Positions 3,067 to 52,880 of a stretch of 64,000 nt of DNA are shown in pieces. The stretch comes from Dehalococcoidia bacterium. Its GTDB lineage: Bacteria > Chloroflexota > Dehalococcoidia > Lucifugimonadales > Australimonadaceae. The notes under the pieces are model-generated. The model was given only the letters and a program-made list of their open reading frames with translations. It made no database searches and had not been told where the DNA came from. The stretch is taken from assembly GCA_965243745.1 (NCBI GenBank), contig CBDEVR010000002.1, positions 1,237,986 through 1,301,985 on the forward strand, written 5' to 3'. The translations under genes and the position numbers were made by a program. Every line of letters begins with the position of its first letter. Position 1 is the stretch's first letter.

Positions 3067-4499
3067 CACGCGTCGTGCCTCACGATAGGGTCGATGGGGA
3101 CCCGCCCCGCGAGCCCGCACGCCTCCTCGAACAGCGCAGCCGCCGACAGCAGCGACGCCTCGTCCGCGCGCGGCGTCATCAGCTGCAGCCCCACCGGCAG
3201 CCCGGACGACGTGAACCCGCACGGCACCGAGATCGACGGGCACGACGTGAGCGTCAGCGCGAACGACATCACCAGCCAGCTCACGTACGTCTCGAACCGC
3301 ACGCCCCCGGCCTCCTCCACGTACCGCTGGTCGACGTCGAACGGCGGTACGAGCACCGTGGGTGACACGAGGATGTCGTACCGCTCGAAGAACGACGCCG
3401 TGCGGTAGTAGAGCGCCCCGCGCGCCGCCTCCGCCCGGTTCACGTCCTCCGCCGACAGCGCCAGCCCCGCCTCCACGTTCCAGATGACCTCCGGCTTCAG
3501 CAGGTGCCGGTTGTTCTCCAGGTGCTTCCCGTACAGCGCCGCGAACTGCGCCGCACGCAGCGCCTGGAATATCGGCTCCGCGTCGTGCAGGTCGGGCGCG
3601 CCTTCGTCCACCGATGCCCCGATGCCCTCGAACAGCCGCACGGCGCGGGCGCATATCTCTTGCACCTCCGAGTCCACCGGCGCGATACCGAGGTCCGGCG
3701 AATACGCGACGCGCTGAGGCGCGCGGGGCGCGTCCACCGCCTCCACGAACGGACGCTCCGATCGCGGCAGGCTGATAGGGTCCACGGGAGTGACGCCGCA
3801 CGCCTGCGTGTCGAGGAACAGCGCGACGTCGCCCACCGTCCGCCCCATCGGCCCCTCGACCGACAGCCCGGCGAACGGCAGCTCCTTCGGGCCGTGCGGC
3901 ACGCGCCCCGGCGAGGGACGCAGGCCGACGACCGAGCAGAAGCTCGCGGGGATGCGCAGGCTCCCACCGAGGTCACTCCCCGTCGCGAGCCACACCTGCC
4001 CCGTTGCGAGCGCGACCGCCGCGCCGCCCGAGGAGCCGCCGCACGTCATCCGCGTGTCCCACAGGTTGCGCGTCTTCCCGAACACCTCGTTGAACGTGTT
4101 CGCCCCGGCCCCGAACTCCGGCGTGTTCGACTTCGCCAGCACGACGCCACCCTGGGACTCGATGTTCTCGACGAGGAAGTCGGAGCGCTCCGGCACGTGC
4201 TCCGCGTAGATCGGCGACCCCTTCGTGGAGCGCACGCCCGCCACGTCCTTCAGGTCCTTCACCGCGAACGGGAGCCCGTGCAGGTAGCCGGGCGGCGCGT
4301 CGTCGGGCGGGCCGGATGCTGCCAGCCGCTCGGCGTGCTCCCGCGCCCGCTCCACCGCAAGCGTCGGCAGCGCATTCACCGCGCCGTCCACCTCCCCGAT
4401 GCGCTCGACCGCCGCGTCGACCATCTCCAGCGGCGACACCTCCCGCGCTGCGAGCCGCCGCACCGCCTCCCGCGCCGTCATCCGCACCAGGTCATTCAT
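3066..4499 (-). CDS. amidase (amidase-signature family)
   Basis: 477 aa. GGSSGGAAVALA and GSDLGGSLRIPASFC amidase-signature motifs. Confidence 0.9.
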   Translation of the reverse strand: MNDLVRMTAREAVRRLAAREVSPLEMVDAAVERIGEVDGAVNALPTLAVERAREHAERLAASGPPDDAPPGYLHGLPFAVKDLKDVAGVRSTKGSPIYAEHVPERSDFLVENIESQGGVVLAKSNTPEFGAGANTFNEVFGKTRNLWDTRMTCGGSSGGAAVALATGQVWLATGSDLGGSLRIPASFCSVVGLRPSPGRVPHGPKELPFAGLSVEGPMGRTVGDVALFLDTQACGVTPVDPISLPRSERPFVEAVDAPRAPQRVAYSPDLGIAPVDSEVQEICARAVRLFEGIGASVDEGAPDLHDAEPIFQALRAAQFAALYGKHLENNRHLLKPEVIWNVEAGLALSAEDVNRAEAARGALYYRTASFFERYDILVSPTVLVPPFDVDQRYVEEAGGVRFETYVSWLVMSFALTLTSCPSISVPCGFTSSGLPVGLQLMTPRADEASLLSAAALFEEACGLAGRVPIDPIVRHDA

Positions 4500-45334: not shown

Positions 45335-45376
45335 TTGATACGGGGTATTGACAGTATCGAAGGGCAGTGCTACTGT
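45335..45376 (+). promoter_or_regulatory. putative Fur/Zur operator overlapping a promoter (copy 1)
   Basis: TTGATACggGGTATTGACA contains palindrome ATAC-N3-GTAT. -35 TTGACA (45348..45353), N17, TACTGT. ATG lies 9 nt after the -10. Confidence 0.55.
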
Positions 45377-45385
45377 CTGCCAGCT

Positions 45386-45901
45386 ATGGCGACGGTTTTC
45401 ACGAAATCTGCGAGCGCGGTCATGCAGGCTGAGTCCACCCTCCTTGCGGCCTTGGAGGAGCATGGCACCCGCATGACCTGGCCACGCCGTCAACTGGCGA
45501 GGATGCTCGCTCGGCGGACCGGCGCGTTCAGCGCTGAGGAGATCGTGGCCGGATTGCCGACTCTGGGCCGGGCGACCATCTACCGCACGCTGCGCCTGCT
45601 CGGGGATGCCGGCGTCCTCTGCAAAACCACCATGCCGGACGGTTCGCCTCGCTATTCGCTGGACAACGCACAGCACCACCATCACCTCATCTGCGTCTGC
45701 TGCGGAAGCGTAGACGAATTTCGTCACCCTTCTATCGACCAGGTGCTCCGCGCCATGAATGACCATGTCGGGAGCGAACTCGTCGGGCACCGCCTTGAGC
45801 TGTACCACCGCTGCGCTATCTGTCGCGGAGAACGGCCAGAGCGGCAAAGACGGCCACGTGCACGTGGCCCGCGTGCATGCACACTGAAACTCAACGGATA
45901 G
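45386..45901 (+). CDS. Fur family transcriptional regulator (Zur-like), copy 1
   Basis: wHTH GRATIYRTLRLL. HHHHLICVCCG and CAIC (CxxC...CxxC structural Zn site). Confidence 0.85.
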   Translation: MATVFTKSASAVMQAESTLLAALEEHGTRMTWPRRQLARMLARRTGAFSAEEIVAGLPTLGRATIYRTLRLLGDAGVLCKTTMPDGSPRYSLDNAQHHHHLICVCCGSVDEFRHPSIDQVLRAMNDHVGSELVGHRLELYHRCAICRGERPERQRRPRARGPRACTLKLNG

Positions 45902-45918: not shown

Positions 45919-48303
45919 ATGAGATACGCTCTCACTAGTCTGCACAAGCTGCTCATCGCCGGGGCGCTGGCCCTGGCGATCGTCTCCTGCTCAGGGGATG
46001 CCGAGCCCACAAACACACCGGTTGGTCCCGCACCCACAGACACGCCGGTCGCTGCCGCCGAGCCGCTGAATGTGGTCGCGAGCATCTACCCGATGCAGTA
46101 CTTCGCGGAGCGTATCGGCGGCGACCGGGTGGATGTCACGACCATCGTGCGACCCGGCGTCGAGGCCCACTCATTCGAGCTCACGGCGGGCGATCTCCTC
46201 ACGATTGCCGAGGCCGACGTCATAGCGATGAACGGCCTCAGTCTGTTGCCCTGGCTGGAACGCGCGCTCGAGTCCCTGGGCGATGACGTCTCCGGTATCG
46301 TGGTCGAGGCTGCGTATCCCGAGGCGGCACTGCCCTTCGTGGAAGGCGGACACGAAGACGAACATGGGCACGGGCACGAAGACGAACACGGGCACATGGA
46401 AGAGGACGAGCACGGACACGAGGGTGAGTCAGCCTTTGACGGCCGCCTGCTGATCGCAGACCTCGAGGCGGAACACCTCTCGGTGCTCGACCTGTCAACG
46501 GAAGAACTCGACTCCGGCGCCTTCGCGATCGGTGCGCCGCCTGCTGCCATCTACCCCAGCCCGACCCACCGCTACGCCTTCGTCCTCGCCCGGGGCCCGG
46601 GAGACGCCGATGACGGCATCCACCTCTTCGACGGTGGCGTCTACCTCGTTGAGCACGGCGACCACTTCGACCTCGTGCGCGAACCGGTCTCGCGTCACCC
46701 CTCCGTGGTGATGGATGAACGGCCGATCCACTTCGTCAACAGCTACGGCTGGACGGCGATATTCGCCGACGCTCACGGCCACGTCTTCCTCTACAACGAG
46801 GAGGAGATCACCAGCACACAGGGCGACTACCGGCCGCTCGTGCTCGAGGCCGGCCCGCAGCACGGCGCCGCCCTGGCGATCTCACCCGACCACATCGTCG
46901 TGACCACCCAGAACCCCGACTACCCCGAGAACACGGACAGCACCCTGCCCGTCGGCGTTGAGGTATGGGACCTTGATGGCCACGTCCTCTACGACGCCAG
47001 TAACCGCTCCTGCCCCGGCATGCACGGCGAGACGCACAACGAGGAAGGCGCCATCTTCGGCTGCGTCGGCGGCGTGCTCTTCCTGCACCCGCACGACGGC
47101 AGCTACCATCACGACTTCATCGACAATCCCCCCGAGATGCGCGAAGAATCTCGCATCGGCTCCTTCTTCGGACACCACCACCTGCACCACTTCTTCGGAC
47201 GCGCCTCTTACCGCGACAGTCAGGGCTTCGCCGACGACGGTATCTGGCTGATCGACCCTGAAGGAGGCGAGTTCCAGCGAGTCTTCAGTGAACCGGTCGC
47301 GGCCGGAGCTGTCGGCTCGCACGCAGAGCGCCTCTACCTGCTCACCGCTGATGGCGAGCTCCACGTGCTCGATGCCCATGACGGCGATGAGATCGCACAT
47401 CTCCACGTCATGGAACCGGGCGAGGACGCGCGGCCACGCCTCATCATCGTCGGGGAGACGATGTTCCTGACGAACCCGAACCACGGTGAAGTCATCGCGG
47501 TCGACCTCGAACACCTCGAGGTGGAGGAGGTCTGGGACGTCGGAGGTTCGCCCTCCGGCATTGCCTTCGTCGGCATCCTCGGTGAAGGGGATGAGCACGA
47601 GCACGACGAGGACGAGCACGGCCATGAGGATGAGCACGACCACGACGAGGACGAGCACGGCCATGAAGACGAGCACGACCACGACGAGGACGAGCACGAC
47701 GAGGACGAGCACGGCCACGAGGATGAGCACGACCACGACGAGGACGAGCACGGTCACGACGACCACGGCCACGGCGAGTTTGATCCTCACTTCTGGCTCG
47801 ACCCGCTGCTTGCCATCACCCAGGCGGAGCGCATCGCGGAGGCGCTGATCGAGGCGGACCCCGAGGGCGCAGACATCTACCGGGCGAACCTCGCCACGCT
47901 GTCCTCTGATCTCCGGGCGCTGCACGCCGAGTTCGAGGCGGGCCTCAGTTCGTGCGTCCACCGCGAGTTCGTCACGTCTCACGCGGCGTACGGCTACCTC
48001 GCGCATGCGTACGGCCTGGAGCAGGTGCCGATCGCCGGTCTCTCTCCTGAGGCAGAGCCATCGCCGCAGCGCCTCGCGAGCATCGCCGATCGCATCAAGG
48101 ATCTCGGCATCACAGCGGTGCTCCTCGAGCCAGTGCTCTCCGGTGCGCACGAACGGTCGCTCGCCGACGAGACAGGGGCTGGCATATACCAGATCCACTC
48201 GATAGAGAGCGTTACCCTGGCTGAACTGGACGAGCACGGGGACTACTTCGGCCTGATGCGTGACAACCTGAGCAGTCTGCGAGCTGCGATGGAGTGCTCG
48301 TAG
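45919..48303 (+). CDS. ZnuA/AztC-type metal-binding lipoprotein with nested ~385-aa AztD-like beta-propeller insertion
   Basis: Lipobox LAIVSCS. N-lobe (VVASIYPMQYFAERIGGDRV) and C-lobe (GEFDPHFWLDPLLAITQAERIAEAL...) are collinear with the 49917..51218 paralogue. Residues ~171-555 are inserted between two His-rich segments. Confidence 0.85.
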   Translation: MRYALTSLHKLLIAGALALAIVSCSGDAEPTNTPVGPAPTDTPVAAAEPLNVVASIYPMQYFAERIGGDRVDVTTIVRPGVEAHSFELTAGDLLTIAEADVIAMNGLSLLPWLERALESLGDDVSGIVVEAAYPEAALPFVEGGHEDEHGHGHEDEHGHMEEDEHGHEGESAFDGRLLIADLEAEHLSVLDLSTEELDSGAFAIGAPPAAIYPSPTHRYAFVLARGPGDADDGIHLFDGGVYLVEHGDHFDLVREPVSRHPSVVMDERPIHFVNSYGWTAIFADAHGHVFLYNEEEITSTQGDYRPLVLEAGPQHGAALAISPDHIVVTTQNPDYPENTDSTLPVGVEVWDLDGHVLYDASNRSCPGMHGETHNEEGAIFGCVGGVLFLHPHDGSYHHDFIDNPPEMREESRIGSFFGHHHLHHFFGRASYRDSQGFADDGIWLIDPEGGEFQRVFSEPVAAGAVGSHAERLYLLTADGELHVLDAHDGDEIAHLHVMEPGEDARPRLIIVGETMFLTNPNHGEVIAVDLEHLEVEEVWDVGGSPSGIAFVGILGEGDEHEHDEDEHGHEDEHDHDEDEHGHEDEHDHDEDEHDEDEHGHEDEHDHDEDEHGHDDHGHGEFDPHFWLDPLLAITQAERIAEALIEADPEGADIYRANLATLSSDLRALHAEFEAGLSSCVHREFVTSHAAYGYLAHAYGLEQVPIAGLSPEAEPSPQRLASIADRIKDLGITAVLLEPVLSGAHERSLADETGAGIYQIHSIESVTLAELDEHGDYFGLMRDNLSSLRAAMECS
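47587..47775 (+). repeat. in-frame tandem repeats encoding (E/D)EH(G/D)H(E/D)D units
   Basis: Repeating gacgaggacgagcacggccatgaggatgagcacgaccac-type units coding DEHEHDEDEHGHEDEHDHDEDEH... Confidence 0.85.
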
Positions 48304-48373: not shown

Positions 48374-48730
48374 ATGAAGTGGTACGACGAACCAGAGCGC
48401 ATCGACGCAGATCAGATGCTGAACAGCGAAGCACGCGACATGAAGTGCATGGCGACCGGGCCTGGTCAGTGTGCGGACTGCTGGAAGCGGACGATCAACG
48501 GCGACTTCGTCACACCGCTTGACCCGGAGCCACACGAGTTCGAACTGGATGATCTGCTCAGCTTCGCGACTATCGCGGCCAACGCGGCAGAGCACCAGCT
48601 TGATCCGGAAGAGGCGGACGCTGAGTTCAACGCGGTGCTCGTCGACCTGGACGCGGACGATGCCAGCTTCTTGGCGGATCTGGTGCTCTACCAGTTGACT
48701 GAATGTCCCATCGGCAGATGCCGGCGCTGA
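48374..48730 (+). CDS. hypothetical acidic protein with Cys clusters
   Basis: GGAGG SD; GC3-rich codons. CMATGPGQCADC near the N-terminus and ECPIGRC at the C-terminus. Confidence 0.6.
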   Translation: MKWYDEPERIDADQMLNSEARDMKCMATGPGQCADCWKRTINGDFVTPLDPEPHEFELDDLLSFATIAANAAEHQLDPEEADAEFNAVLVDLDADDASFLADLVLYQLTECPIGRCRR

Positions 48731-48806
48731 CGGCAGGCGCGTGTGCTCGAATCGCCTCGCCGTGGCGCTGGAGATACGCAAGAACCCAACAAGGAAGGAG
48801 GCGGTA

Positions 48807-48992
48807 ATGGCAGATCTGACGGCCTATTCGGTGAAACTGAGGAAGATGGTGGTCATCAAGGACCCCGAGTTGATAACGCTGAAGAACGGAGCAAAGGCGG
48901 TCCGCGGCGTAGCGGCGGAGGACCCGTCCAGCAAGGTCTTCAAGATTCTGAGCGCCAAGCAGGCGGAAGAGGTTGGAGCGAAGCTCGGCTGA
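48807..48992 (+). CDS. small protein (61 aa), Cys-free DUF5679-like, copy 1
   Basis: AAGGAAGGAGG SD. MADLTAYSVKLRKMVVIKDPELITLKNGAKAVRGVAAEDPSSKVFKILS. No Cys or His. Confidence 0.7.
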   Translation: MADLTAYSVKLRKMVVIKDPELITLKNGAKAVRGVAAEDPSSKVFKILSAKQAEEVGAKLG

Positions 48993-49122
48993 CCAGCGCC
49001 TGGCTCTTTCTCCTAAGGGGGGGTGGCGTCAGACTTCCTCCCCGGCGCACCCTCCCTTAGGCCTCGTTTGCGCTGCTCGCTGAGTGAAGATACGCAGGAA
49101 ACCCTATCGCTAGGAGGCGGAG

Positions 49123-49311
49123 ATGGTAGATCTGACGGCCTATTCGGTGAAGCTGAAGAAGATGGTGGCCATCAAGGACCCGGAACTGGTAACCCTGAAG
49201 AACGGGCGGAAGGCAGTCCGCGGCGTAGCGGAAGAGGACCCGTCCAGCAAAGTCATCCGGATCGTGAGTGACAAGGACGCGGAAGAGATCGCAGGCGCCC
49301 TGCGCCGGTGA
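49123..49311 (+). CDS. small protein (62 aa), Cys-free DUF5679-like, copy 2
   Basis: AGGAGG SD. 45 of 61 aligned residues identical to 48807..48992 by hand count. No Cys or His. Confidence 0.7.
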   Translation: MVDLTAYSVKLKKMVAIKDPELVTLKNGRKAVRGVAEEDPSSKVIRIVSDKDAEEIAGALRR

Positions 49312-49349: not shown

Positions 49350-49392
49350 TTGATACCAAGTATTGACTGTTGCCGCGGAAGGCAGTTACCTT
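49350..49392 (+). promoter_or_regulatory. putative Fur/Zur operator overlapping a promoter (copy 2)
   Basis: TTGATACcaAGTATTGACT (ATAC-N3-GTAT). -35 TTGACT, then TACCTT. ATG lies 7 nt after the -10. Confidence 0.55.
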
Positions 49393-49399
49393 CTGCTCT

Positions 49400-49897
49400 A
49401 TGACGATGATTACCGGCAAGCCCGCCGCGGCGGCCGCGCAGGCCGAGTCCAACATCCTCGCGGCGTTGGAGGAGCATGGCAGTCGCATGACGTGGCCTCG
49501 CCGTGAGCTCGCTGCGATGCTCGCCCGGCGGACGGACGCTTTCAGCGCGGAGGAGATCGTCGCCGGCTTGCCCGGCTTGGGGCGGGCGACGATATACCGC
49601 ACGCTGCGCCTGCTCGTGGAGGTCGGCATCCTCTGCAAGACCGTCATGCCGGACGGCTCGCCGCGCTACTCCCTGGACGATGCACATCATCATCACCACC
49701 TCGTCTGCGTCGCATGCGGACGCATCGACGAGTTCCGCCACCCCTCGGTCGAACGGATGCTCCGGGCCATGAAGGACCACGTGCAGGGCGAACTCATCGG
49801 CCACCGACTCGAGTTGTACCACCGTTGCGGTGACTGCCAGGAAAGCGGACACGGCGCGGAGCCGCACATGCACGGGACCCACGTACACGCCCATTAG
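49400..49897 (+). CDS. Fur family transcriptional regulator (Zur-like), copy 2
   Basis: GRATIYRTLRLL, HHHHHLVCVACG, CGDC. His-rich tail GHGAEPHMHGTHVHAH. Confidence 0.85.
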   Translation: MTMITGKPAAAAAQAESNILAALEEHGSRMTWPRRELAAMLARRTDAFSAEEIVAGLPGLGRATIYRTLRLLVEVGILCKTVMPDGSPRYSLDDAHHHHHLVCVACGRIDEFRHPSVERMLRAMKDHVQGELIGHRLELYHRCGDCQESGHGAEPHMHGTHVHAH

Positions 49898-49916: not shown

Positions 49917-51218
49917 ATGAGACTCCATCTCGTAACGTCGTTTCGCGTGTTTGCCGCCGGATTGCTCGCCCTGGTGGTTGTCGCTTGTTCAGCTGACCCC
50001 ACGCCCACGTCTGCGCCTGTTCCGGGCGTCCCCACGGCCACTCCCACCGAAGCGCCCCTCGAGCCGCTGACCGTGGTCGCGAGCATCTACCCGATGCAGT
50101 ACTTCGCCGAGCGCATAGGCGGCGACAGGGTGAACGTCGTCGCCCTCGTGCCCCCCGGCGCAGAGGGTCACACGTTCGAGCTCACGGCGCGCGACCTCAT
50201 CACGATCGGCGAAGCCGACGTCATCGCGATGAACGGCCTCGAGATGGAGCCGTGGCTGGAGCGCGCGCTCGAGTCCCTGGGCAACGACGTCTCCGCCATC
50301 GTGGTCGAGGCAGCCGATGCGGAAAGCGCGCTGCCCTTCGTAGAGAGTGGGGATGCACACGGTCACGAGGATGAGGACGAGCACGACCACGACGAGGATG
50401 AGCACGACGACGAGGATGAGCACGACCACGACGAGGACGAGCACGACCACGACGAGGATGAGCACGACCACGACGAGGACGAGCACGACCACGACGAGGA
50501 TGAGCACGACCACGACGAGGACGAGCACGGCCATGAGGATGAGCACGACCACGACGAGGACGAGCACGACCACGACGAGGATGAGCACGACCACGACGAG
50601 GATGAGCACGAACACGAGGACGAGCACGAACACGAGGACGAGCACGGCCATGAGGAGGACGAGCACGGCCATGACGCCCACGCCCACGGCGAGTTCGATC
50701 CGCACTTCTGGCTCGACCCGCTGCTTGCCATCACCCAAGCGGAGCGCATAGCCGAGGCGCTCATCGAGGCGGACCCCGAGGGCGCCGACGTCTACCGGGC
50801 GAACCTCGCCGCGCTGAGCGACGACCTCCGGGCGCTGCACACCGAGTTCGAGGCGGGCCTCAGCTCGTGCGTCCACCGCGAGTTCGTCACGTCGCATGCC
50901 GCGTACGGCTACCTCGCACTGGCGTACGACCTGGAGCAGGTGCCGGTGGCTGGCCTCTCTCCGGACGCAGAGCCATCGCCGCAGCGCCTCGCGAGCATCG
51001 CCGACCGCATCAACGACCTCGGTCTGGGAGCCATACTCGTGGAGCCTGTGCTTGCCGGTTCACACGAGCAGACGCTCGCCGCTGAGACCGGCGCAAGCGT
51101 CTACACGATCCACCCGCTGGACGGCATTACCCAGGCAGAACTGGACCAGCACGGAGACTACTTCGGTCTGATGCGCGACAACCTCAACAGCCTCCGCACT
51201 GCGCTGGAGTGCTCGTAA
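49917..51218 (+). CDS. znuA: zinc ABC transporter substrate-binding lipoprotein ZnuA with giant H/D/E loop
   Basis: Internal ATG 49917 (MRLHLVTSFRVFAAGLLALVVVACS lipobox). Cluster A-I SBP lobes. Followed by znuC and znuB. Confidence 0.9.
   Translation: MRLHLVTSFRVFAAGLLALVVVACSADPTPTSAPVPGVPTATPTEAPLEPLTVVASIYPMQYFAERIGGDRVNVVALVPPGAEGHTFELTARDLITIGEADVIAMNGLEMEPWLERALESLGNDVSAIVVEAADAESALPFVESGDAHGHEDEDEHDHDEDEHDDEDEHDHDEDEHDHDEDEHDHDEDEHDHDEDEHDHDEDEHGHEDEHDHDEDEHDHDEDEHDHDEDEHEHEDEHEHEDEHGHEEDEHGHDAHAHGEFDPHFWLDPLLAITQAERIAEALIEADPEGADVYRANLAALSDDLRALHTEFEAGLSSCVHREFVTSHAAYGYLALAYDLEQVPVAGLSPDAEPSPQRLASIADRINDLGLGAILVEPVLAGSHEQTLAAETGASVYTIHPLDGITQAELDQHGDYFGLMRDNLNSLRTALECS
50349..50690 (+). 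repeat. 21-nt in-frame tandem repeat array encoding EHDHDED units
   Basis: gacgaggatgagcacgaccac-type unit repeated about 14 times with minor variants. Encodes residues ~145-258, made of H/D/E with a few G/A. Confidence 0.9.
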
Positions 51219-51240
51219 CTGGCTGAAAGAGAGAACGGAT

Positions 51241-52062
51241 ATGGATGACACGCCGGCAATCGAACTGGAAGACGTCTCCTACACGTATGCGGGCGCCCCG
51301 GCGGTGCACGGCGTGACGCTGCGCATCAAGCGCGGGGACTTCACGGCTATCGTCGGCCCCAACGGCAGCGGAAAGAGCACGCTCATCAAGGTCATCCTGG
51401 GGCTCATCAAGCCGGACAACGGAAGCGTGCGCGTTTTCGGCACCGACATCGAACGGTTCAGGGACTGGCATCGCATCGGCTACGTCCCGCAGGTGGCGGC
51501 GGGCATCCACGCCATGTTCCCCATCACGGTGAGCGAGGTCGTCGCGCACGGCCGGTACACCGGCTTCTCGCCGTTCGCGTTCTGGCGCAGGAACGGCGCG
51601 GACGTGGACGACGTCCTGAAGATGGTCGACATGGCGGACTTCAAGCGCCGCCGCATCGGTGAACTCTCCACCGGCCAGCAGCAGCGCGCCCTCATCGCCC
51701 GTGCACTCATCCGCAAGCCGGACCTGCTCGTCATGGACGAGCCCGTCGCGGGCGTGGACGTCCAGGGCGGGGAAGAGGTCTACACGCTGCTCCGCGAACT
51801 CCGGGAGAGCGGCGTCACCATACTCATCATCTCCCACGACGTCGGCGCCGTCATGCGCGAGGCCTGCACCGTGGCATGCATCAACTGCACGCTCCTCTGC
51901 CACTGCCCGCCCCACGAACTGACCGAGGACGACCTCGTGCGCCTCTACGGCTTCCCGGTTGAGGTGTTGCACCACGGTGAGCACCACGACCACCACGCGC
52001 ACGGCGAAGACGCCGTCCGCCACGGCGAGTTCGACCAGCTTGCGCCCCACGCGCACCACTGA
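51241..52062 (+). CDS. znuC: zinc ABC transporter ATP-binding protein with His-rich C-terminal tail
   Basis: GPNGSGKST, LSTGQQQRA, LLVMDEP. Tail HHGEHHDHHAHGEDAVRHGEFDQLAPHAHH. Confidence 0.9.
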   Translation: MDDTPAIELEDVSYTYAGAPAVHGVTLRIKRGDFTAIVGPNGSGKSTLIKVILGLIKPDNGSVRVFGTDIERFRDWHRIGYVPQVAAGIHAMFPITVSEVVAHGRYTGFSPFAFWRRNGADVDDVLKMVDMADFKRRRIGELSTGQQQRALIARALIRKPDLLVMDEPVAGVDVQGGEEVYTLLRELRESGVTILIISHDVGAVMREACTVACINCTLLCHCPPHELTEDDLVRLYGFPVEVLHHGEHHDHHAHGEDAVRHGEFDQLAPHAHH

Positions 52063-52067
52063 TCTCC

Positions 52068-52880
52068 ATGCCGGCCATCCTGCAATACGACTTCATGGTG
52101 CGCGCCCTCATCGGGGGGGTCCTCGTCGGCGGCCTCGCGCCCGTGCTCGGCACCTTCCTCGTGCTGCGCCGCTTCTCGCTGCTCTCCGACACGCTCGCGC
52201 ACGTCGCGCTGTTCGGCGTTGCCGTCGGATTCGCAGTGAACGTTTACCCGACGCTCACCACGTTCATCACGGTCACCTTGGCCGCGGTTGTGATGGAAGG
52301 GCTGCGCTCGCGCGGCAAGCTCCCCGGCGACGCCGTCCTCGCAGTCGCGCTCTACTCCTCGCTCGCCGCGGCGGTGGTTGTCATCAGCGCCGCGCAGGGG
52401 TTCAACGTGGACCTGCTCAGCTTCCTCTTCGGCTCCATCCTCACCATCACCGAATTGGACCTCTGGCTCATCGGAGGGCTGGCGCTCTTCGTCGTCATAG
52501 GCGTGACGGCCTTCTTCACCGAACTCGCACAGACCTCGTTCGACGACGCGCTCGCCCGCGTCTCCGGCATCAAGGTGGACTGGGTCAACTTCGGGCTGGC
52601 AGTGCTCGCCGCCGCCACCATCACCCTGGCCATGCGCATCATGGGCGTCCTGCTCGTCGGTGCGCTCATCGTCATCCCTGTCCTCGTGGGGCAAGGGCTC
52701 ACGAACAGCCTGCGTACCGCGTTCATCGTCGCATCGGGCGTGGGGATGGTCAGCGCCGTTACCGGCCTCACGCTCGCCTTCTACCACGACCTTCCGGGCG
52801 GCGGATCGATCGTGCTCACTGCCGTGGCCATGCTCGTGCTGTCCATAGCCTGGCGCAGGTTCCGCCGGCGCTCCTCGTAG
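52068..52880 (+). CDS. znuB: zinc/metal ABC transporter permease
   Basis: 270-aa polytopic ABC-3 type permease directly after znuC. Confidence 0.88.
   Translation: MPAILQYDFMVRALIGGVLVGGLAPVLGTFLVLRRFSLLSDTLAHVALFGVAVGFAVNVYPTLTTFITVTLAAVVMEGLRSRGKLPGDAVLAVALYSSLAAAVVVISAAQGFNVDLLSFLFGSILTITELDLWLIGGLALFVVIGVTAFFTELAQTSFDDALARVSGIKVDWVNFGLAVLAAATITLAMRIMGVLLVGALIVIPVLVGQGLTNSLRTAFIVASGVGMVSAVTGLTLAFYHDLPGGGSIVLTAVAMLVLSIAWRRFRRRSS

What the first reader, a model, noticed from the sequence alone, without database searches (positions are those of the whole stretch)
48807..49311. Tandem Cys-free versions of a DUF5679-like zinc-ribbon mini-protein embedded in the zinc-uptake locus
Two adjacent 61/62-aa genes, each with a strong SD, encode paralogues that are 45/61 identical by hand count. 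The duplicated unit includes about 25 nt of upstream sequence (GAGATACGCAAGAACCC versus GAAGATACGCAGGAAACCC). Their pattern AYSVKL-KMV-IKDPEL-TLKNG-KAVRGVA-EDPSSKV--I aligns, from my recollection, with DUF5679 zinc-ribbon proteins (AYCVKCK...NGR.A.KG.CPVCGTK..RI). All four Cys positions are replaced (C>S, C>L, C>A, C>D/S), and neither protein contains any Cys or His. They sit between two Fur/Zur-like regulators and ZnuA genes on the same strand. This mirrors the established Zur-regulated C-minus paralogues of ribosomal proteins L31, L33, L36 and S14, which replace Zn-ribbon forms during zinc starvation. It would extend the zinc-sparing logic to an uncharacterised protein family.
Basis: inference. 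Interest (0 to 1): 0.8.

Follow-up and report, generated by a model that had tools for sequence, protein, structure and literature searches.

The report
Cysteine-free zinc-ribbon mini-proteins in zinc-uptake operon
Two tiny neighbouring genes in a bacterial zinc-import locus encode cysteine-free relatives of an uncharacterised zinc-binding mini-protein family (DUF5679), probably zinc-independent stand-ins made when zinc is scarce, as some bacteria do with ribosomal proteins.

Summary
Two real genes (48807-48992, 61 aa; 49123-49311, 62 aa) are 75% identical and contain no Cys or His. They lie between two Fur-family regulator/ZnuA units.

Homology to DUF5679 holds, although both proteins fall below Pfam's threshold. 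The evidence is a profile-profile match (97% probability, E 5e-11) and a whole-library profile search that retrieves bona fide four-Cys DUF5679 proteins. The four Cys align to S, L, A and D.

The Cys-free family is conserved and under purifying selection. It occurs in Dehalococcoidia/SAR202, many of them sponge symbionts. Of 85 gene copies in species-representative genomes, 38 lie within 2 kb downstream of znuA on the same strand, behind promoters that carry a Fur-type box.

Four-Cys paralogues coexist with Cys-free ones: ten copies that are not znuA-linked have one within 1 kb. I could not show a four-Cys copy in the window's own lineage. About half of the family is not zinc-linked and has no recognisable box.

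The zinc-sparing reading is therefore plausible but only partly supported. This is a new member of a known kind of system. The function of DUF5679 itself remains unknown.

The parts
45336..45375 (+). Putative Zur operator (TGATACGGGGTATTG, 45336-45350) overlapping a TTGACA-17-TACTGT promoter in front of the first regulator gene.
   Evidence: The box TGATAY-N3-RTATCA recurs upstream of the zur/znuA genes in related loci. The promoter assignment is inferred from the sequence.
45386..45901 (+). Fur-family regulator, putative Zur1. The probable start is ATG 45386; the ORF list gives TTG 45335.
   Evidence: Pfam FUR, E 3e-25. NCBIfam gives only sub-threshold Fur/PerR/Zur hits. The start codon was judged from alignment with related loci.
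45919..48303 (+). ZnuA/AztC-type zinc-binding lipoprotein (794 aa) interrupted by an AztD-like metallochaperone domain (residues 182-551) and His/Asp/Glu-rich loops.
   Evidence: Pfam ZnuA, E 9e-72. NCBIfam AztC E 8e-46 and AztD E 2e-39 over profile positions 4-354 of 356.
48374..48730 (+). orf118: conserved Cys-containing, acidic protein of unknown function that accompanies the mini genes in zinc loci.
   Evidence: No Pfam or NCBIfam hit. There are 19 homologues between znuA and the mini genes in related loci, and most carry CxxCxxxCxxC.
48770..48801 (+). Conserved leader motif plus Shine-Dalgarno sequence of mini1 (GGAGATACGCAAGAACCCAACAAGGAAGGAGG).
   Evidence: It aligns with the mini2 leader. 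The core CAGGAAAnCnAATAGnAAGGAGG is seen upstream of Cys-free genes in other loci.
48807..48992 (+). mini1: 61-aa Cys-free DUF5679-like protein, the type that pairs with orf118.
   Evidence: (33 bits against a C+ HMM).
49012..49061 (+). G+C-rich REP-like hairpin between mini1 and mini2 (CCTAAGGGGGGGTG ... CACCCTCCCTTAGG).
   Evidence: Read from the sequence. The same element lies in intergenic spaces of related loci. It is not an intrinsic terminator by the scan.
49084..49117 (+). Conserved leader motif plus Shine-Dalgarno sequence of mini2 (GTGAAGATACGCAGGAAACCCTATCGCTAGGAGG).
49123..49311 (+). mini2: 62-aa Cys-free DUF5679-like protein, the general family type.
   Evidence: (DUF5679 E 0.0057), and 50 (AF2 pLDDT 86: four strands plus a C-terminal helix).
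49351..49395 (+). Second putative Zur operator (TGATACCAAGTATTG, 49351-49365) overlapping the TTGACT promoter of the second regulator/transporter operon.
49400..49897 (+). Fur-family regulator, putative Zur2 (probable start ATG 49400).
   Evidence: Pfam FUR, E 2e-24.
49917..52880 (+). Zinc ABC transporter: ZnuA2/AztC-like lipoprotein (49917-51218), ATPase (51241-52062) and permease (52068-52880).
   Evidence: Pfam ZnuA E 1e-63. The best NCBIfam hits are AztC, AztA and AztB.

Best explanation
mini1 and mini2 are genuine, expressed mini-proteins. They belong to a single Cys-free lineage of the DUF5679 zinc-ribbon superfamily, with the ligand positions C, C, C, C changed to S, L, A, D. They keep the basic beta-ribbon core and have gained a C-terminal helix.

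In this window they form the tail of a zinc-uptake operon (regulator, ZnuA::AztD, orf118, mini1, mini2). The promoter of that operon is overlapped by a Fur-type operator. They would therefore be repressed when zinc is plentiful and made together with the importer when zinc runs out.

Their most likely job is to do, without zinc, whatever the four-Cys DUF5679 protein does. That is probably nucleic-acid binding. The cell could then keep the function while no longer committing zinc to an abundant small protein.

What is shown: the genes, their homology to DUF5679, the loss of the ligands, the linkage to zinc-uptake genes, and the coexistence of C+ and C- paralogues in related genomes.
What is inferred: co-transcription with the uptake operon, control by Zur, and functional replacement of the C+ form.
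For: Homology:
- A profile of the Cys-free family finds 222 library proteins at E <= 1e-3. They grade into four-Cys proteins that score 57-97 bits on Pfam DUF5679.
- hhalign of the C- profile against the lineage's C+ profile gives 97.1% probability, E 4.9e-11, over 43 columns.
- A C+ HMM scores the window proteins at 33-38 bits.
- Intermediates that retain one or two Cys exist (CLAD, CICA, CLAN).

Real genes:
- dN/dS is 0.06-0.36.
- AF2 gives pLDDT 86 for mini2 and 88 for a C+ member, with the same strand order.

Zinc linkage:
- 38 of 85 copies in 78 species-representative loci lie within 2 kb downstream of znuA on the same strand. Of these, 24 also have zur and 18 have orf118.
- The znuA-linked copies fall in three separate parts of the family tree, including the basal clade.
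- The box TGATAY-N3-RTATCA sits at the zur/znuA promoters, including window positions 45336 and 49351. It also lies in front of two copies that are not znuA-linked (L061, L065).
- No promoter-like or terminator-like site was found between znuA1 and the mini genes.
- The transporter proteins hit the zinc-specific AztABC(D) models best.

Paralogue pair:
- Four-Cys DUF5679 genes lie 150-550 bp from Cys-free genes in L017, L025, L030, L032, L033, L034, L036, L047, L063 and L074.

Precedent:
- Zur-regulated zinc-independent paralogues of ribosomal proteins and other proteins are established (PMC2770081, PMC5912738, PMC8000910).
Against: - 46 of 85 copies are not next to znuA. Most of those carry their own strong promoter and no recognisable box, so many family members may be constitutive.
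- All ten adjacent C+/C- pairs are outside zinc loci.
- No C+ gene was found in the window or traced to chromosomes of the window's clade. That clade may have no C+ form to replace.
- The mini genes have no operator of their own; their regulation is inferred from operon position.
- The regulators are Fur-family proteins but are not assignable to Zur by sequence.
- The function of DUF5679 is unknown, and structure searches gave nothing significant.
- The extra C-terminal helix and the leader specific to C- genes allow a diverged function.
Confidence: 0.5

Rival explanations
1. The Cys-free proteins are not replacements. They are a diverged DUF5679 branch with a job of its own in the zinc-starvation response, for example acting with orf118 or the ZnuA::AztD importer, or regulating their expression.
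For: - orf118 and the mini1 type form a conserved adjacent pair.
- The znuA-orf118-mini module is found nearly identical in contigs attributed to two phyla.
- C- proteins have an extra C-terminal helix that C+ forms lack, and a conserved leader of their own.
- No C+ copy was found for the window clade.
Against: - The basic core and the strongly conserved surface motif (VTLKNGR.A.RG) are kept between C+ and C- forms, which argues for the same binding partner.
- Half of the family lies outside zinc loci.
- There are no metal ligands and no detectable link to transport proteins.
Confidence: 0.2
2. The Cys-free form is simply the lineage's general, constitutively expressed zinc-independent DUF5679. 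Its frequent position after znuA reflects ancestry or the mobility of a small gene cassette (leader plus gene), not zinc regulation.
For: - 46 of 85 copies are unlinked to znuA and sit in many unrelated contexts with their own TTGAC(A/G)-17-TAnnnT promoter.
- The leader travels with the gene.
- Several genomes carry 2-3 dispersed copies.
Against: - A 45% occupancy of one specific position, directly downstream of znuA on the same strand, is far above what a genome with one to three znuA genes would give by chance.
- That position is kept in three separate parts of the tree.
- Two non-znuA copies have the operator in front.
- There is no internal promoter in the window.
Confidence: 0.2
3. The two ORFs are chance or decaying reading frames, pseudogenised remnants of a zinc ribbon.
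For: Loss of all four ligands could mark a dead gene. Pfam does not recognise them at threshold.
Against: - There are 283 close homologues of constant length with the same S/L/A/D pattern.
- dN/dS is well below 1.
- The genes have a strong Shine-Dalgarno sequence and a conserved leader.
- The fold prediction is confident.
Confidence: 0.02

Closest known systems
Zur-regulated C-minus paralogues of zinc-ribbon ribosomal proteins (L31/YkgM, L33, L36/YkgO, S14, S18; the mycobacterial AltRP operon)
   Same: A small basic zinc-ribbon protein has a paralogue in which all Cys ligands are replaced. The Cys-free copy sits in or beside a Fur-family-controlled zinc-uptake locus, and both forms occur in one genome (PMC5912738, PMC2770081).
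   Different: The protein family is uncharacterised and is not known to be ribosomal. About half of the Cys-free copies lie outside zinc loci without a recognisable operator. Zinc-dependent expression is not shown. The C- form carries an added C-terminal helix and a conserved leader specific to it.
Non-ribosomal zinc-independent paralogues in Zur regulons (DksA2, FolE2, PyrC2 and similar)
   Same: The same zinc-sparing logic applied to a non-ribosomal zinc protein (PMC2770081, PMC10393844).
   Different: Those have known biochemical functions and demonstrated Zur control. Here neither is known.
Pfam PF18930 (DUF5679), four-Cys mini zinc ribbon
   Same: Same domain by profile comparison, same predicted strand order, and same conserved VT(L/M)KNGR.A..G core.
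   Different: Below the Pfam threshold, no Cys, one extra residue in the second knuckle, and about 14 extra C-terminal residues that form a helix.
AztABCD zinc transporter with the AztD periplasmic metallochaperone
   Same: The transporter proteins in the window hit the Azt models best, and an AztD-like domain is present.
   Different: Here the AztD-like domain is inserted inside the binding protein instead of being a separate gene. All scores are below NCBIfam's equivalog cut-offs.

Membership tests
Pfam PF18930 DUF5679 | Score at or above the curated gathering threshold (27 bits) | tested here: not met
   mini2 scores 17.2 bits (E 0.0057) and mini1 has no hit.
Pfam PF18930 DUF5679 | Significant homology to bona fide members by profile methods | tested here: met
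   The C- profile retrieves four-Cys proteins at E down to about 1e-8 against 1.8 billion sequences. Those proteins score 57-97 bits on PF18930. hhalign gives 97.1% probability, E 4.9e-11.
Pfam PF18930 DUF5679 | Two CxxC knuckles (four zinc ligands) | tested here: not met
   The ligand columns hold S, L, A and D, and the proteins have no Cys or His anywhere.
Pfam PF18930 DUF5679 | Small beta-ribbon fold | tested here: inconclusive
   AF2 models of mini2 (pLDDT 86) and of a C+ member (pLDDT 88) show the same succession of strands. Foldseek finds only insignificant zinc-ribbon-like matches. The two models were not superposed.
Zur-regulated zinc-independent (C-minus) paralogues | Metal ligands lost relative to a homologous zinc protein | tested here: met
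Zur-regulated zinc-independent (C-minus) paralogues | A C-plus paralogue in the same genome | tested here: inconclusive
   Met for ten related loci, where a four-Cys gene lies within 1 kb of a Cys-free one. None is in the window, and none was traced in the window's clade. The rest of this genome is not available.
Zur-regulated zinc-independent (C-minus) paralogues | Zur operator controlling the gene | tested here: inconclusive
   A conserved Fur-type box overlaps the promoter of the upstream operon (45336), and no internal promoter or terminator was found. There is no box directly in front of the mini genes. The regulator type is not assignable by sequence.
Zur-regulated zinc-independent (C-minus) paralogues | Enrichment next to zinc-homeostasis genes across genomes | tested here: met
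   38 of 85 copies lie within 2 kb downstream of znuA on the same strand. One more follows zur-orf118, and two more follow boxes.
Zur-regulated zinc-independent (C-minus) paralogues | Induction under zinc limitation and functional replacement of the zinc form | not testable with these tools
   This needs expression and genetic or biochemical data.

The most novel reading that the evidence does not exclude
DUF5679 is an abundant nucleic-acid-binding mini-protein of Chloroflexota and some other phyla, possibly associated with translation or the ribosome. One C+ lineage sits right after nusA-infB-rbfA-truB, where rpsO usually lies. It exists as a zinc-dependent/zinc-independent pair that forms a previously unrecognised zinc-responsive switch. 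The Cys-free copy carries a dedicated conserved 5' leader that adds post-transcriptional control.
Probability: 0.15. Interest if true: 0.7.

Novelty: new member of a known kind. Interest (0 to 1): 0.55.

Why it matters
If correct, this adds an uncharacterised and very widespread mini zinc-ribbon family to the set of proteins that bacteria swap for zinc-free versions during zinc starvation. One search here returned more than 5,000 sequence clusters of the four-Cys form.

It gives the first functional handle on DUF5679. The protein would be abundant enough, or important enough, for its zinc to be worth sparing.

It also indicates that zinc scarcity shapes the genomes of marine and sponge-associated SAR202/Dehalococcoidia. 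Finally, it provides a natural series (four, two, one and zero Cys) for studying how a zinc ribbon becomes stable without metal.

Tried and rejected
- Six-frame search of the window for CxxC...CxxC mini-ORFs and for C+ DUF5679 with an HMM found none.
- I tried to show a C+ gene on chromosomes of the window's clade by matching contig lengths in two protein searches. Only the best 120 hits are listed, and none matched, so this is unresolved rather than negative.
- Rfam found no family in the window or around the genes.
- RNAalifold on MAFFT alignments of the leaders predicted no consensus structure. Single-sequence folds are not clearly more stable than shuffles, although most show a hairpin just 5' of the conserved block. 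I therefore do not claim a structured RNA element.
- PDB sequence search and Foldseek searches of both models gave nothing significant. The best hits were generic zinc ribbons (LysW, NrdR, Pol I A12.2, Rpr2) and Cren7, all at E > 0.3.
- Gene neighbourhoods of C+ genes and of Cys-retaining intermediates are variable. Only one of four C+ lineages is next to translation genes. Other Cys-free lineages (NTAD and DAST types) were found only on short contigs.
- Neighbour clustering of the copies that are not znuA-linked found no common partner. The one recurring neighbour is a GAF/histidine-kinase/response-regulator fusion gene near ten of them.
- A literature search for DUF5679 found no functional study.

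Full report
**What is there.** The + strand carries two short ORFs. mini1 is 48807-48992 (61 aa) and mini2 is 49123-49311 (62 aa). Each follows a strong Shine-Dalgarno sequence. They are 75% identical (45/60, E 5e-32) and have no Cys or His. About 30 nt upstream of each Shine-Dalgarno sequence is also similar.

The surrounding genes, all on the + strand, are:
- a Fur-family regulator (probable start 45386, end 45901);
- a 794-aa ZnuA-type lipoprotein (45919-48303);
- a 118-aa ORF (48374-48730);
- mini1 and mini2;
- a second Fur-family regulator (49400-49897);
- a second ZnuA (49917-51218);
- an ABC ATPase (51241-52062) and a permease (52068-52880).

NCBIfam's best hits for the transport proteins are the zinc-specific AztC, AztA and AztB models. 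The Fur-family proteins hit Fur, PerR and Zur models only far below threshold, so 'Zur' is a contextual inference.

**The genes are real.** A search of 5.8 billion proteins gave 283 close homologues. The 120 listed are 60-82 aa long. None has a Cys in the domain; two longer predictions each have one Cys in a C-terminal extension beyond it. Nearly invariant blocks are AYSVKL.K.V.IKDPE.VTLKNGR.AVRGVA.EDPSSKV.RI.S. dN/dS is 0.31 between mini1 and mini2 and 0.06-0.36 against homologues from other genomes. AlphaFold2 with a mixed alignment gives a confident model (mean pLDDT 86) with four beta-strands followed by a C-terminal helix.

**Homology to DUF5679.** Pfam alone is not decisive. mini2 hits PF18930 at E 0.0057 and 17.2 bits (threshold 27), and mini1 does not hit. 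This is expected if the Cys columns carry much of the model's score.

Three independent tests establish the relationship:
1. A profile of the Cys-free family searched against 1.84 billion representative proteins found 222 proteins at E <= 1e-3. They run continuously into four-Cys proteins of the form AYCVKCRKKVEIK.P..VT.KNGRPA..G.CP.CGTKVFRIGK. Those proteins are bona fide DUF5679, for example P0189 at 57 bits and P0165 at 97 bits. Multi-domain proteins with 3-7 DUF5679 repeats were also retrieved.
2. Profile-profile comparison of the C- alignment with C+ proteins of the same bacterial lineage gives 97.1% probability, E 4.9e-11, over 43 columns. It aligns the four Cys to S8, L11, A36 and D39, with one extra residue in the second knuckle.
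3. An HMM built only from C+ domains scores the window proteins at 33-38 bits.

Among 172 domains of the representative hits, the ligand patterns were CCCC (53), C[E/D]CC (27) and several Cys-free types: SLAD as here, NTAD and DAST. There were also intermediates that keep one or two Cys (CLAD, CICA, CLAN). Both forms are basic (pI 9.4-9.9). The C+ form ends right after the last strand, whereas the C- form has about 14 more residues that form a helix.

**Distribution and link to zinc.** A scan of one genome per GTDB species returned 79 loci. Nearly all are Dehalococcoidia/SAR202 MAGs, many of them from sponges. One contig is attributed to Candidatus Palauibacter. The window's mini2 is found exactly only on a 1.7-kb sponge-metagenome contig.

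Using the window's zinc proteins as probes, the counts for the 85 Cys-free gene copies are:
- 38 lie within 2 kb downstream of a znuA homologue on the same strand. Of these, 24 also have the regulator upstream and 18 have orf118.
- One more follows zur-orf118.
- 46 are elsewhere.

In an NJ tree the znuA-linked copies occupy three separate regions, including the basal clade. The linkage therefore looks old. The tree rests on about 60 residues, so it is only indicative.

**A conserved operator.** Upstream of the regulator and znuA genes there is a conserved operator-like box, TGATAY-N3-RTATCA. In the window it lies at 45336 and 49351, in both cases overlapping a TTGAC(A/T) -35 hexamer. A second clade has two inverted 15-mers (TGATATGTTGTCTCA), one at the -10 region and one at the start codon.

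Two copies that are not znuA-linked also follow such boxes. In L065 the boxes are followed by a copy that retains one Cys and then by a Cys-free copy. In L061 a 182-aa ORF lies between the boxes and the copy; a downstream minus-strand ORF there resembles, by eye only, a cation-diffusion-facilitator-type protein. Low-GC SAR202 copies have a different Fur-type palindrome upstream (ATGAGAATGATTCTTAT), which I did not follow up.

In the window, no promoter-like or terminator-like site was found between znuA1 and the mini genes. The simplest reading is one transcript from the promoter at about 45347 through mini2. The G+C-rich hairpin at 49012-49061 may act as a processing or stabilising element. 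This is inference.

**C+ paralogues.** The window has none. Searching all fetched loci with the C+ HMM showed four-Cys DUF5679 genes (74-80 bits) lying 150-550 bp from Cys-free genes in L017, L025, L030, L032, L033, L034, L036, L047, L063 and L074. L059 has a decayed remnant. Both forms therefore coexist in one genome, often as neighbours.

All ten of these pairs are outside zinc loci. The C+ genes have unrelated upstream regions. C+ DUF5679 is very common in Chloroflexota, with 5,456 clusters at E <= 1e-3 in one search. I could not determine whether genomes of the window's own clade have a C+ gene. Matching contig lengths in two searches gave only the already known cases, because only 120 hits are listed.

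**Copies that are not znuA-linked, and the leader.** Most of these copies carry a good TTGAC(A/G)-17-TAnnnT promoter and no recognisable box within 300 nt.

All Cys-free genes, znuA-linked or not, share a conserved stretch just 5' of the Shine-Dalgarno sequence. Its consensus is ..TGAAGAAACATGCGCAGGAAAGCnAATAGCAAGGAGG, and in the window it reads GATACGCA(A/G)GAA(A)CCC. It is usually preceded by a hairpin of variable sequence.

An nhmmer profile of this block found 24 sites in 1.58 Mb, every one directly upstream of a Cys-free gene. The window's own leaders are too diverged to score in that search. No consensus structure was predicted, and there is no Rfam match. I record it as a conserved leader of unknown role. 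It could be an mRNA-stabilising 5' hairpin plus a translation-enhancing or protein-binding region.

**What DUF5679 does.** This remains unknown. No paper treats it. No solved structure is related by sequence. Foldseek gives only insignificant matches, led by generic zinc ribbons (LysW, NrdR, Pol I A12.2, RNase P Rpr2) and the DNA binder Cren7.

C+ genes are mostly stand-alone in varied contexts. One lineage lies directly after nusA-ylxR-infB-rbfA-truB, where rpsO normally sits. Three others do not. A basic nucleic-acid-binding protein is the most I would infer.

**Interpretation.** A Cys-free paralogue of a zinc-ribbon protein is produced together with the zinc importer under control of a Fur-family zinc sensor, and it substitutes for the zinc-requiring form. 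This matches the C-minus ribosomal proteins and DksA2 (PMC2770081, PMC5912738, PMC8000910).

I put it at about 0.5, for three reasons:
- Regulation is inferred from position.
- Half of the family lies outside zinc loci, apparently with its own promoters.
- A C+ partner is unproven for this clade.

The rivals are a diverged function specific to zinc starvation, perhaps with orf118 (0.2), and a constitutive zinc-free form whose znuA linkage is historical (0.2). Chance ORFs are excluded.

**Verdict.** This is a new member of a known kind of system (zinc-independent paralogues in zinc-starvation loci), involving an uncharacterised but very widespread mini-protein family. Interest is moderate.

Noticed in passing
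window 45919-48303 (residues 182-551 of the product): The first ZnuA/AztC-type binding protein is split by an insert of about 370 aa. The insert matches the periplasmic zinc metallochaperone AztD over almost the whole model (E 2e-39, below the cut-off), so this is a binding protein with its chaperone fused inside it. The same long form occurs in L006, L008, L009, L012 and L039.
   Followed up: partly
window 48374-48730; homologues in L003-L016, L021, L024, L029, L037, L039, L050: orf118 is a conserved protein with no family assignment. It has an N-terminal CxxCxxxCxxC motif (C-x7-C-x2-C in the window) and a very acidic C-terminal half. It is always found between znuA and a Cys-free mini gene, and it forms a fixed pair with the mini1 type.
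   Followed up: partly
window 48770-48801 and 49084-49117; about 50 nt upstream of Cys-free genes in L009, L017, L020, L025, L027, L030-L036, L041-L045, L047, L049, L051, L053, L055, L058, L062: There is a conserved leader just 5' of the Shine-Dalgarno sequence (core CAGGAAAnCnAATAGnAAGGAGG, longer form TGAAGAAACATGCGCAGGAAAGC...), usually preceded by a hairpin of variable sequence. All 24 nhmmer hits in 1.58 Mb are directly upstream of Cys-free genes, and C+ genes lack it. It has no Rfam match and no predicted consensus structure.
   Followed up: partly
window 49012-49061; similar elements in L003-L005, L007, L010, L015, L016, L024, L029: A G+C-rich REP-like inverted repeat (GGGGGTGCGCCG...CCGGCGCACCCCC type) recurs in intergenic spaces of these loci. 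In some gene calls it is read through as the tail of orf118.
   Followed up: no
window 45336-45350 and 49351-49365; L006-L062 upstream of zur/znuA: A candidate Zur operator for Dehalococcoidia, TGATAY-N3-RTATCA, overlaps the -35 hexamer. A second clade has two inverted 15-mers at the -10 region and at the start codon of zur. The listed TTG/GTG starts of zur1, zur2 and znuA2 are probably too far upstream (likely ATG 45386, 49400 and 49917).
   Followed up: partly
L003, L004, L005, L016 compared with L015, L029: The znuA-orf118-mini module is about 86-88% identical in contigs attributed to Candidatus Palauibacter (Gemmatimonadota) and to Dehalococcoidia/SAR202. Both sets are sponge-associated. 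This is either horizontal transfer of the module or a binning error.
   Followed up: no
L085-L088, gene at 4001-4141: In one Chloroflexota lineage the four-Cys DUF5679 gene lies directly after nusA-ylxR-infB-rbfA-truB on the same strand, the position usually held by rpsO. Three other C+ lineages show unrelated contexts.
   Followed up: partly
proteins P0131, P0137 (representative library): Large proteins carry 3-7 tandem four-Cys DUF5679 domains fused to a C-terminal FGE-sulfatase (formylglycine-generating-enzyme-like) domain. P0139 and P0150 fuse a Cys-free DUF5679 domain to an N-terminal region with an HExxH motif.
   Followed up: no
L002, L018, L019 (upstream gene ending about 85 nt before the mini gene); also L014, L023, L026, L038, L046: Several copies that are not znuA-linked lie next to a gene of about 780 aa encoding a GAF-HisKA-HATPase-receiver-Trans_reg_C fusion. 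This is a possible alternative regulator of those copies.
   Followed up: no
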